Below are positions 19,933 through 53,494 of a stretch of 64,000 bases of DNA, piece by piece (the first letter of the stretch is position 1; the number at the start of each line of letters is the position of its first letter). Source of the stretch: Lingula anatina. Lineage: Eukaryota > Animalia > Brachiopoda. The stretch lies in the NCBI GenBank assembly GCA_051362555.1, contig CM120649.1, positions 1,488,001 through 1,552,000 on the forward strand, written 5' to 3'. Both the position numbers and the translations under genes were made by a program. The notes below the pieces were generated by a model. It made no database searches. It was not told where the DNA came from and saw only the letters and a list, made by a program, of their open reading frames with translations.

Positions 19933-22900
19933 ATGGCATTATCAAAACCTTTTCTCACACCTCAAATTGATGTGGAGCAAGAGAATTATCTTCGCATGAG
20001 AGTGTTTCTGGAACGTGCTACAGATGTTCTTAGAGATGTATTGACTAGAGAATTACAGAAAGCTTATCCAGGGGACTTTGACCCATCTACAGGCATATTG
20101 TATAATGTTCTGAGCATTCCAGCTGTAAGAAAAAACTTGCTTCAGTTAAGTAGGAGAAATGTTCTGAATGCAAGCCAAAAGCAGATTTTGTATCCAGCTG
20201 GGGCCCCTTCCATAACTGCAAAGGTACATGATTTTGATGTCACCTTAACTGTCCTGTTGTTAAGGAATATCACCACACTGAATCCAAGCGCCAAATGGGA
20301 CAGGCCTCCCAGCACTGACCTGTCCACAGAAGCTGACATTGGTCGAGTGAAGACATATCGAAACAACCATATGCATAGTACGGCCAGGCTTCCAGCAGCA
20401 ACATTTCAAAGTGACTTTGACGGTCTCAAGACAGTACTACTACGTCTGTCAAATATCTATACAGACCAAGACTATGACCAACTTCTCATTAAACCAATAC
20501 AATCGTCAGGTATACTGTTAAGAATTACAAACAATAAAGAATTTACTTTTTGACATGTAACTAATATATTATTACAGTTACTATAGATAATTGAAGATTA
20601 TTTATATAGGAAATTGAATATTCCCCATTTATGGCATTCCATTTGCTTCAAAAATTTGAAACGGAAAATATATATCTAAAGATAATCATATGTATTTATA
20701 AATATTATTTTTCATTTTGAAGCAAAACATATATGTGAATAAGATTTCATGCATTACCAAGGCTTTATATATTCATGAAAAAAAAAATGACCTTGAAAAT
20801 ATTTTCATGCATTTAATAACTTGAAGATTTTGGAATATAAATACTTGTTTTCAAATATGTTTTCGAATATGATTTTTTTTTTCAAATATAAAAACTTTCT
20901 TGGTGACGTCGGCAAAATGTGTGTACACAGAGCGTTCGCATTCGGGTGTACCTAATTACCGTCTACAACCGACCACTACCGTCCACATATTTTTTTGATG
21001 AATATATAAAGCCTTTGTAATTTTAATTTGGTTAGCAAGAATTGGACATGAAAATAAAAGAAAGTTGACATGCTTCTTCATATTTGTTGTCATGTTCATT
21101 GGCCACTTACATAAGTTGATTGCAAATGTTTCATCCATTGTTTCAGGAGTACCTACTGCTTGCCAACTCATGTCCGTGAACCTCCCTAGAAAAGTCAGTG
21201 ACTTTTGTGGACGAGAGGATTTGTTAACAGCGATCCAACAAAATGTTGAGAACAACTCAGATGTTTTACTTCTGACAGGAATGGGTGGCATTGGTAAAAC
21301 TAGCATAGCTGTAGAGATGGGGCATCGCATGAGTGATGAAGGTAGAAATGTTCTGTTTTTTGATATGAGGCAGGTTGAAAATCTTGATTCTGTTCAGTTA
21401 TCACTAGTTCAACAATATAATCCTCAGATATTTCTGAAAGACATATATGCTGACTGTCAGAATTTGTTTCAAAAGACTCTGTCTGATATCAAATCAGCAA
21501 CTGTAGTTATTTTTGACAACATTGATAATTTACTTAGAGACCGGACACTGAAACAGTTCTTGATATTACTTCAGGATATGTTGAAAGCATCAAAGCACAT
21601 ATCTTTAGTCTGTACCAGCCGTGAATCATTTGACCTCATGTCAGTGAAAATGGTTGAAATACATGTCCCACCTCTTGATGATAATACATCAACACAGCTC
21701 CTTTCTGCAGTAACACCTGCTCCTCCAATTGAGAAGGAAGCAGGGATATTGAAAGAAATAGCCGCTAGGTGTGGGTACTGTCCACTTGCCTTGAAATTAC
21801 TAGCTCCGCAAATTAGAGAGAAAGGAAGTTTGCGAGTACTAGAGAAAATGGAGAAAAAAGGTGTTCTTAAAGTAGCAAATAGATCTTCATTTGTAGGACT
21901 AGTGCCATGTTTTGAAATATCTTTTGAGGCAATGTCTGCCAGAGAAAAAGACCTGTTTTGTAGTCTCTATCTGTTCCCAGTGTCTTTTCATTTGAGTGAT
22001 GTTTCAAACATTCTTAAAATGGATGAGGGTGAATGTGAAGACATTTTTGATAGTCTCACATTCAAGTCTGTTGTAAATCGTGTAAGTGACCAGGTGTATG
22101 ATCTGCATCCTCTGTTAAATGCTTTTTCTGAGTCCCAAGCAATACAATTTCCTGACAAAAAATCAAATATGGAAATTTCATACTGCAAATATTATTCTGA
22201 CAGGGCAGCTACACTGGCAGTAACATTTGAATTCTCAGTTCCAAAATATTCAAATGAAACAGAAGCCATACTTCCACATTTGCTGTGCAGTGGAAATATT
22301 TTATTAAATTATCTAAGCAAATACCCTCAAGGAAGATCAACAAGCACTACTGCAATGTACAGTGATGTTGACACAGACTATGATGATTTCATACAAAGAC
22401 TACTGGCAATTGCCAAAGTAATGATAGAAGTGTATTTGTTTAATGAGTCTCTGCAGCTATTAAAAAAATTAGAAAATATTCTCCAAACTACACAAAACAG
22501 TGTGCCTCTAAAAAAACAAACCAGTATACACCGTAAGTTATCTTCAGTATACGAGTGCATTGGGAATGTTTTGCTTGGTATGAGTAAGTATGATGATGCA
22601 TTGATATATCACAAGCAAAGTCTGGAAATACGTGAAGAGCTGCTTGGAACCAAGCACATTACCACTGCTATATCATACGACAATATTGGTATGACACTAA
22701 GAGGCATGGGTCAGTTTAATGATGCAGTGCTAAGCTACATGAAATGTCTTGATATATGTAAAGAGCTTTTTGGCACGGAGCACACTGAAACTGCTGAATC
22801 ATACAACAATATTGCTGCCGTGCTACGTGAAATGGGTAAGTATGATGACGCTCTGACATATTTTAAGAAAGGTCTTGCAATAAATAAAAAGTGTTTTAGT

Positions 22901-53000: not shown

Positions 53001-53494
53001 CCGAAGTATTCAGAGATTTAGGTGACCTGGTTCGTGACATGGAAATGTATGAAGATGCATTGACAAATTACAAGAAAAGTCTTGAAATATGTGAAGATCT
53101 TCTTGGTACCAAACACACTAAAACTGCTGAGGCATACAACGGTTTTGCTGCTGCACTACTTGGCATGGGTAAGTGTGCAGAATCTCTGAAATATTTAAAA
53201 AAAGCTCTTGATATATATGAAACACATTTTGGTGTCAAGCATGAAGACACATATTCATGTTACCAAAAAACTGGACAAATTTTGATAGACCTGAAGTTGT
53301 ACAGAGATGGAGTTCTTTATTTGAAGAAATGTGCATCAGTTCAAGAAGAGTTACTCGGTGTCACCCACCAAGATACGATAGATACATGTAAAATAATTGG
53401 TACTGTTCTTGTAATGATGGGACAATTTGCAGAAGCAATCAAGTACTTCAAAAAAATCAACTGGGGCATTGCCATTGCCCAACATGCATGTTAA
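48944..53494 (+). CDS. HEPN-STAND-TPR paralog 3; exons 48944-49520 and 50730-53494; ~1113 aa, ~11 TPRs
   Basis: Open frame across a phase-1 intron (CTCAG|gtatac..tttcag|GA). Motifs YRNKHMH, GMGGIGKTS, IFDCID, CGYCPLAL, YDLHPLL and 42-aa TPRs. Confidence 0.87.
49978..50059. repeat. (TA)n microsatellite
   Basis: Pure TA run adjoining the Tc1 end. Confidence 0.95.
50060..50703 (-). mobile_element. Tc1/mariner transposon 3' remnant in the paralog 3 intron
   Basis: After (TA)n comes a Tc1-like TIR CAGCATTGGTCAAAAAGG. The - strand encodes DDALAHSS..QPSLSPDINPTEHLW, a decayed form of the Tc1 DNARPH..WPSQSPDLNPIEHLW motifs. Confidence 0.85.

What the first reader, a model, noticed from the sequence alone, without database searches (positions are those of the whole stretch)
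19933..53494. Tandem array of animal HEPN-RNase / STAND NTPase / TPR receptors: a candidate Avs-like innate immune system
Seen: three paralogs, each joining by phase-matched splicing a 192-aa N-terminal exon to an NB-ARC-like NTPase and a long TPR array. The ORF track splits them, so they look like unrelated ORFs. All three keep the Rx4H motif (RNNHMH, RNKHMH, RNKHMH) plus Walker A, sensor-1 and GLPL-like motifs. Established: HEPN Rx4H domains are RNases activated by dimerisation (Cas13, RNase L/Ire1 KEN, bacterial abortive-infection toxins); STAND-TPR proteins oligomerise on ligand binding (bacterial Avs, fungal NLRs); DZIP3-type HEPN fusions to STAND proteins have been noted computationally in invertebrates. 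Inference: a one-component sensor-to-nuclease receptor that degrades RNA or kills the cell on detecting a pathogen protein. I know of no functional characterisation of such a system in animals.
Basis: partly seen in the sequence, partly recalled or inferred. Interest (0 to 1): 0.92.

Follow-up and report, generated by a model that had tools for sequence, protein, structure and literature searches.

The report
Brachiopod RNase-headed immune receptor gene cluster
Three neighbouring copies of a gene, most similar to genes of the lamp shell Lingula, each encode a predicted RNA-cutting head, a molecular switch and a variable repeat tail; this design is already catalogued in corals and likely serves immunity, but I found no experimental test of it in any animal.

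Summary
Three paralogs each have a 577-nt HEPN_DZIP3 coding exon (Pfam E~1e-30, intact RNx3H) in phase with a large NB-ARC/42-aa-TPR exon. Twelve RNA reads join 20509 to 21147 (GT..AG), but the reads resemble copies 2/3, so splicing is shown for the family, not for each copy. Lingula anatina RefSeq holds at least ten fused relatives, one with the same junction. HEPN and NB-ARC are under purifying selection (dN/dS 0.25-0.41). TPR groove positions are the most variable, but positive selection failed its control. Best reading: a one-chain sensor-switch-RNase receptor; ligand, oligomerisation and RNase activity are untested. It is not an Avs member. The same HEPN/NB-ARC/TPR architecture is already tabulated in corals (PMC10236652), HEPN-NACHT arrays are described in pearl oyster, and this scan noted the design before on other DNA. 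My literature searches found no functional study. Verdict: new members of a known, uncharacterised class; moderate interest.

The parts
18670..18809 (+). Internal 5'-UTR exon of copy 1 (AG before, GTGAGT after; no ATG; stops in all three frames)
   Evidence: 2 reads of run X7 join this region to 19920 (table 5c; under the tool's 3-read listing level)
19923..20509 (+). Copy 1 HEPN exon: acceptor at 19922/19923, ATG 19933, HEPN_DZIP3 domain, RNNHMH at 20359-20376, phase-1 donor
21147..25540 (+). Copy 1 large exon: NB-ARC (Walker A 21278-21301), winged helix with LHP, helical linker, about 20.5 TPR units of 126 nt (22580-25166), capping helices, stop
30501..30659 (+). Homologous 5'-UTR exon of copy 2
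   Evidence: sequence only
32390..32976 (+). Copy 2 HEPN exon (ATG 32400; RNKHMH at 32826-32843)
33502..36692 (+). Copy 2 large exon: NB-ARC, winged helix (LHL), about 10.7 TPR units (34926-36275) with recently duplicated units of 91-93% identity
35838..35840 (+). Premature in-frame TAA in TPR unit 8 of 11 of copy 2 (971-aa product, or a sequencing error)
48531..48649 (+). Truncated remnant of a further HEPN exon (95% like copy 3), fused to the intron upstream of copy 3; its ATG is out of frame
48934..49520 (+). Copy 3 HEPN exon (ATG 48944; RNKHMH at 49370-49387); no copy of the 5'-UTR exon found between 39600 and this exon
50730..53494 (+). Copy 3 large exon: NB-ARC, winged helix (LHP), about 8.5 TPR units (52149-53215)
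57184..57328 (+). Orphan copy of the 5'-UTR exon, with upstream-like blocks at 56461-56873; no HEPN or NB-ARC exon follows within the window

Best explanation
These are three tandem copies of a spliced gene encoding HEPN head, NB-ARC switch and TPR tail in one chain, which likely acts as an intracellular immune receptor with a built-in RNase. Shown: gene structure, domains, intact motifs, family-level splicing and expression, purifying selection on head and switch, varying repeat number, most variation at the TPR groove. Inferred by analogy to STAND and HEPN proteins: at rest the TPR tail would hold the ADP-bound NB-ARC closed; a foreign or altered protein binding the TPR groove would allow ADP-to-ATP exchange and ring formation; the short head-to-switch link (about 15 residues) would pair HEPN domains so that two RNx3H motifs form one active site; RNA cutting would then restrict the invader or kill the cell. 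Copies are gained, shuffled and lost, which would renew specificity. The ligand and the RNA target are unknown.
For: HEPN_DZIP3 in 3 of 3 copies. R143, N144 and H148 are at least 90% conserved in a 96-row alignment; 145 of 156 aligned homologues keep Rx4H or Rx5H; 10 of 11 HEPN-bearing Lingula family members keep Rx4H. Model of the copy 1 head has pLDDT 94, with the motif at the end of helix 132-147. Splice joint in 12 reads; the fused RefSeq protein P0001 has the same junction. dN/dS is 0.36-0.41 for the HEPN exon (upper CI 0.72-0.75) and 0.25-0.29 for NB-ARC+WH. Walker A, sensor-1 Arg and the MHD-position His are kept. A model of relative P0002 matches STAND-TPR 6mfv (E 1.4e-15), Apaf-1, Avs3 and CED-4. 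TPR positions 2, 5, 9, 12, 13, defined beforehand as the binding face (PMC1261162), are 5 of the 6 most variable columns in 36 units (p 0.0003 against non-conserved columns). Repeat number varies (20.5, 10.7, 8.5), as in fungal NB-ARC-TPR receptors (PMC4986451). HEPN catalysis needs canonical dimers (PMC8266594); Avs7 shows TPR clamp, ADP-to-ATP exchange and tetramer (PMC13581612).
Against: No activity, ligand, oligomer or induction data. Structural match of the head to solved HEPN RNases is weak: Foldseek best E 0.33 (Csm6), VIA Z 6.2 at rmsd 8.5 (AbiF), below three unrelated helical bundles. The codon-model test for positive selection is not specific: groove omega 2-3, but a convex-face control also gave 2.5-4. 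Groove variability is general to TPR proteins and shows ligand binding, not immunity. Copy 2 is truncated and copy 3 lacks the upstream exon found for copies 1 and 2. Three of four RNA runs had almost no reads on the exons. The second Walker B acid is replaced by N, S or C. STAND clades switch often between defence and other roles (PMC13581612 section 5).
Confidence: 0.6

Rival explanations
1. Same receptor, but the HEPN head binds RNA or recruits partners instead of cutting; the protein would be an RNA sensor or signalling scaffold.
For: PMC8662601 proposes HEPN-NLRs as RNA sensors or RNases. The head sits where adaptor domains (DEATH) sit in coral NB-ARC-TPR proteins. One family member lost the His (P0032). 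The fold match to active HEPN RNases is weak.
Against: R, N and H are kept in 3 of 3 copies and Rx4-5H in 145 of 156 homologues; loss of the motif is what marks non-catalytic HEPNs (PMC8266594).
Confidence: 0.15
2. A sensor-RNase whose trigger is self: non-self tissue of the same species, damage, or a guarded host protein, as for fungal het NLRs, rather than a pathogen protein.
For: Repeat-number variation and groove variability mirror fungal NB-ARC-TPR genes, some of which serve allorecognition.
Against: No tissue-fusion biology is known to me for solitary brachiopods (recalled). Expansion and turnover fit a parasite arms race equally well.
Confidence: 0.13
3. A non-immune regulator, such as an RNA-processing or signalling STAND protein (like TEP1, NPHP3 or AfsR).
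For: AfsR is among the best PDB sequence hits; non-immune STANDs are interspersed with immune ones.
Against: At least 12 related proteins in Lingula anatina, 83-88% identity among the closest copies, a stop codon, remnants and variable repeat number do not fit a housekeeping gene; no close orthologue outside Lingula was found.
Confidence: 0.06
4. The array is mostly decaying or partly mis-assembled; only one copy, or none, is functional.
For: Stop in copy 2, missing upstream exon for copy 3, exon remnant, orphan UTR exon; no listed read variant matches copy 1.
Against: Copies 1 and 3 are open over 1656 and 1113 codons; dN/dS is well below 1 in head and switch; g2/g3-like spliced transcripts exist.
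Confidence: 0.06

Closest known systems
Coral DZIP3-like HEPN / NB-ARC / TPR proteins (orthogroup OG0000193; PMC10236652 Additional files 16, 17)
   Same: Identical domain order; 9 of the 29 NB-ARC rows I saw (of 228 occurrences) have it. Stylophora P0069 aligns collinearly with the Lingula family over 742 columns (probability 99.9, 25% identity). Function untested in the passages read.
   Different: P0069 has a longer linker after the HEPN and few TPRs. Its NB-ARC scores 78 bits against the Lingula profile, no better than bacterial hits (69-83 bits), and the tree does not resolve common origin versus convergence.
Lingula anatina RefSeq LOC106161156 (XP_013393483.1) and paralogs
   Same: 83% identical HEPN, same junction, one clade with the three copies (100% support in both trees).
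   Different: Annotated 'uncharacterized' or 'nephrocystin-3-like'; repeat numbers differ.
Invertebrate HEPN-NACHT receptors (pearl oyster PMC9646362; cnidarians PMC8260672; nine taxa PMC8662601; predicted in PMC3710099)
   Same: N-terminal DZIP3-type HEPN with Rx4-6H, STAND core, repeat sensor, tandem arrays with copy-number variation, proposed RNase defence role.
   Different: NACHT core, mostly LRR, WD40 or ankyrin sensors; here NB-ARC with 42-aa TPRs.
Prokaryotic Avs (AVAST) receptors, e.g. SeAvs7, Avs3
   Same: One-chain effector-STAND-TPR logic with a nuclease effector; Avs3 appears in the fold search (E 2.6e-9).
   Different: Prokaryotic; the studied effectors are Cap4 DNases; no meaningful Avs profile hit; phage-protein ligands known there, none here.
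Fungal NB-ARC-TPR NLR-like proteins (PMC4986451)
   Same: NB-ARC with near-identical TPR units, repeat-number variation, variable binding face, enzymatic N-terminal effectors.
   Different: Effectors in the passages read are sesB-like, PNP-UDP, HET, HeLo; positive selection was shown there, not here.

Membership tests
DZIP3/hRUL138-like HEPN (PF18738) | Profile match above the curated cut-off | tested here: met
   102-106 bits against cut-off 27, 3 of 3 copies
HEPN RNases | Rx4-6H motif, usually RN, at the end of a helix | tested here: met
   R143-N144-H148 at the end of helix 132-147
HEPN RNases | Fold matches solved HEPN domains | tested here: inconclusive
   Csm6 and AbiF rank 1, 2 and 4 in Foldseek but E >= 0.33; AbiF Z 6.2, rmsd 8.5, 166 aligned; Csm6 Z 5.3, rmsd 4.4, 132 aligned
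HEPN RNases | Canonical dimer with composite active site and RNA cleavage | not testable with these tools
STAND NTPases, NB-ARC (AP-ATPase) type | Walker A, Walker B, sensor-1 Arg, GxP motif, winged helix with MHD-like His | tested here: met
   GMGGIGKT; IFD[N/S/C]ID; TSR; GYCPLAL; LHP/LHL/LHP. Pfam NB-ARC above cut-off in copies 1 and 2, just under in copy 3. Best PDB sequence hits 8zf0 (plant RPW8-NLR) and AfsR
STAND NTPases, NB-ARC (AP-ATPase) type | Ligand-induced nucleotide exchange and oligomerisation | not testable with these tools
   Inferred from Avs7 passages
Coral-type HEPN/NB-ARC/TPR receptors | Domain order HEPN, NB-ARC, TPR in one chain | tested here: met
Coral-type HEPN/NB-ARC/TPR receptors | Shared descent of the NB-ARC (orthology) | tested here: inconclusive
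   One coral sequence only; node support 0.28
Avs (AVAST) | Match to Avs profiles across NTPase | tested here: not met
   Only Avs4 E 0.0037 over residues 22-64 in 1 of 3 NTPase regions
Avs (AVAST) | Prokaryotic gene that senses phage proteins | tested here: not met
   Spliced eukaryotic gene; nearest relatives are Lingula proteins
Canonical NLR (NACHT or NB-ARC plus LRR) | C-terminal leucine-rich repeats | tested here: not met
   42-aa TPR units instead
Fungal-type diversifying repeat receptors | Repeat-number variation and recent repeat duplication | tested here: met
   20.5, 10.7, 8.5 units; unit pairs 91-93% identical in copy 2. Between paralogs only; no population data
Fungal-type diversifying repeat receptors | Positive selection at binding-face codons | tested here: inconclusive
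   Groove omega 2-3 but control set 2.5-4

The most novel reading that the evidence does not exclude
Marine invertebrates run an Avs-like immune arm: single-chain receptors whose shuffled TPR arrays read pathogen proteins and switch on a fused HEPN RNase without adaptors or second messengers, and these compact two-coding-exon brachiopod genes are a ready test case for it.
Probability: 0.4. Interest if true: 0.8.

Novelty: new member of a known kind. Interest (0 to 1): 0.45.

Why it matters
HEPN-headed STAND receptors are among the largest immune-like gene expansions in corals and bivalves, yet my searches found no experiment on any of them. If the head is a ligand-gated RNase, animals have a direct sensor-to-nuclease defence comparable to bacterial Avs and distinct from OAS-RNase L. 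These copies are convenient to test: two coding exons, intact motifs, a short linker, and natural variants with different repeat numbers. The locus itself adds a brachiopod example and evidence of turnover, not a new design.

Tried and rejected
No whole genome is held for this window, so copy number in this genome is unknown. No listed RNA run was indexed as a holder; nine same-label raw-read runs were offered, four were laid on copy 1. PDB sequence search with the HEPN exon gave one chance-level hit (E 0.39). PADLOC gave nothing for the HEPN exon. Positive selection on the TPR groove: pairwise pN 0.52 against pS 0.26-0.34 looked supportive, but the codon-model test also gave omega above 1 for a control set, so I do not claim it; one out-of-register unit (52535) and irregular copy 3 units were left out, leaving 36. 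Horizontal transfer of the NB-ARC from bacteria: beyond Lingula the named hits were bacterial at about 22-28% identity, but the coral protein scores equally and the tree is unresolved, so I do not claim it. Coding role for the upstream exon rejected (stops in all frames, no ATG). Eight other ORFs in the window had no Pfam hit. The Lingula immunome paper (PMID 29278680) is not held and may already list these genes. Five of 17 supplementary files of PMC10236652 were not searched. Scan look-ups by sequence and by place returned nothing.

Full report
Observation. The window holds three + strand paralogs. Each has a coding exon of 577 nt from the ATG (19933, 32400, 48944) ending CAG|GTAT, and a large exon starting after TTTCAG at 21147, 33502 and 50730. 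All three introns (637, 525, 1209 nt) are phase 1 and the joined frames run to 25540, 36692 and 53494. Copies 1 and 3 are open (1656 and 1113 aa). Pfam gives HEPN_DZIP3 on 3 of 3 first exons (E about 1e-30), weak NB-ARC and strong TPR_12 on the large exons.

Splicing and expression. Of four RNA runs laid on 15000-22570, one (X7) covered the exons, to a depth of about 27 on the HEPN exon. It gave 12 reads from 10 starts skipping 637 nt with GT..AG ends, which is 20509/21147; the other three runs had almost no exon reads. Most reads were 90-95% alike. At 21 of the listed difference sites that fall in the coding exons, the read letter matches copy 2 at 18 and copy 3 at 17, and three sites match no copy. 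The proof is therefore for a g2/g3-like gene of a close relative or allele. Independently, RefSeq protein P0001 of Lingula anatina is 83% identical over the HEPN exon and runs through the same junction. Two reads link the HEPN exon to a non-coding exon near 18670-18809; homologues lie at 30501-30659 and, orphaned, at 57184-57328.

Family. Searches found 12 Lingula anatina relatives with this NB-ARC; 11 carry the HEPN head and 10 of these keep Rx4H. The three copies and P0001 form one clade in both the HEPN and NB-ARC trees. The animal is therefore probably a lingulid brachiopod (inference). The HEPN exon found 620 cluster representatives at E <= 0.001, 150 listed. Of 156 aligned homologues, 51 have Rx4H and 94 Rx5H. 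Of 34 mostly long hits scanned, 20 carry a STAND-type NTPase after the HEPN at E <= 1e-5, with ankyrin, WD40 or LRR tails. Outside Lingula the NB-ARC search gave only distant hits, the named ones bacterial; this search depends on shared words and can miss relatives.

Domains. The copy 1 head folds confidently (pLDDT 94) with R143-N144-H148 at the end of helix 132-147. Structure searches put the HEPN RNases Csm6 and AbiF at or near the top but without significance. The NTPase has Walker A GMGGIGKT, Walker B IFD[N/S/C]ID, sensor-1 TSR, GYCPLAL and LHP/LHL; its best solved relatives by sequence are a plant RPW8-type NLR (E 5.8e-7) and AfsR. A model of the fused relative P0002, used because the window's spliced proteins could not be submitted, has pLDDT 88 and matches the STAND-TPR protein 6mfv, Apaf-1, Avs3 and CED-4.

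Evolution. dN/dS between copies is 0.36-0.41 for the HEPN exon, 0.25-0.29 for NB-ARC plus winged helix, 0.85-1.23 for the helical linker and 0.50-0.64 for the C-terminal cap. TPR number is about 20.5, 10.7 and 8.5 units of 126 nt, and copy 2 has unit pairs 91-93% identical. In 36 in-register units, TPR positions 9, 2, 5, 12 and 13 are five of the six most variable columns (permutation p 1e-5 against all columns, 0.0003 against 21 non-conserved ones). These are the concave ligand-binding positions of PMC1261162 (passages). A codon model gave omega 2-3 for them and 0.6-0.85 for the other 37 columns, but a convex-face control gave 2.5-4, so positive selection is not established. Turnover is visible: the stop in copy 2, an exon remnant at 48531-48649, an orphan UTR exon, and a copy 1 NB-ARC far more diverged (dS 0.58-0.65) than its HEPN exon (0.17-0.18), which suggests gene conversion or mosaic origin.

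Mechanism. HEPN RNases need two Rx4-6H motifs in a canonical dimer (PMC8266594, passages). In Avs7, ligand binding to the TPR lobes releases autoinhibition, ADP is exchanged for ATP and a tetramer assembles the nuclease (PMC13581612, passages and section 5). Applying both, I infer a TPR-gated, oligomer-activated RNase (confidence 0.6). Every dynamic step is inferred. Rivals are a non-cutting RNA sensor or scaffold (0.15), a self or damage trigger (0.13), a non-immune regulator (0.06) and a decaying array (0.06).

What is known. PMC3710099 (passages) lists DZIP3-type HEPN fused to TPR, NACHT, ankyrin, CARD, DEATH and LRR in animals and proposes RNA-directed defence. PMC9646362 (passages) reports more than 50 HEPN-NACHT genes in tandem arrays in pearl oyster, with 194 of 202 HEPN proteins keeping the motif. 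PMC8260672 and PMC8662601 (passages) report HEPN-NACHT in cnidarians and nine invertebrate taxa and call for molecular tests. PMC10236652 (passages and supplement rows) tabulates DZIP3-like HEPN / NB-ARC / TPR in Acropora and Pocillopora: 9 of the 29 NB-ARC rows I saw. I reached this table through an earlier scan note and checked it myself. A Stylophora protein aligns with the Lingula family across all three domains, though shared descent is unresolved. PMC4986451 (passages) describes the fungal parallel; PMC8195603 (passages) adds HEPN effectors in other invertebrate immune proteins. Searches for functional work (listings only unless named above) showed none for an animal HEPN-STAND protein; subscription journals are largely missing, and the Lingula immunome paper could not be read.

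Verdict. Real, well supported as anatomy, and a new member of a known but experimentally untouched class. It works like Avs by inference but fails Avs membership. Interest 0.45; the bold case, a direct sensor-to-RNase arm of animal immunity, has probability about 0.4 and would merit 0.8.

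Noticed in passing
window 4154-6776, + strand: Exons of a multi-exon gene with MORN and ankyrin hits; ANKMY1-like by recall, not tested. It flanks the array on the left.
   Followed up: partly
window 21450-21750 versus 33800-34100 and 51030-51330: Copy 1 drops to 65% nucleotide identity with copies 2 and 3 in the middle of the NB-ARC while flanks are 83-88%; mosaic origin is likely.
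   Followed up: partly
window 39600-48500: About 9 kb with no match to the repeated unit separates copies 2 and 3 and replaces the upstream region of copy 3; its ORFs have no Pfam hit.
   Followed up: partly
window 45988-46263 and 44515-44603/45203-45291: A 276-nt near-perfect palindrome and a pair of 89-nt inverted arms, possibly small transposon remnants.
   Followed up: no
window 56461-56873, 57184-57328, 58500-58900: Upstream-type blocks and a UTR exon of a fourth unit with no coding exon in the remaining window.
   Followed up: partly
window 60240-60774 and 62066-62345: A 199-nt tandem repeat (2.6 copies) and a short palindromic 11-25 nt repeat tract.
   Followed up: no
proteins P0033, P0038, P0039, P0080: The same HEPN head is fused to an interferon-inducible GTPase (P0033, Lingula anatina), a caspase fragment, a W2 domain and B-box/filamin/NHL modules: a mobile effector across immune-type scaffolds.
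   Followed up: no
RNA runs X1, X2, X4 on window 19923-22570: Almost no exon reads, against clear coverage in X7; could be tissue-specific expression or a more distant population.
   Followed up: no
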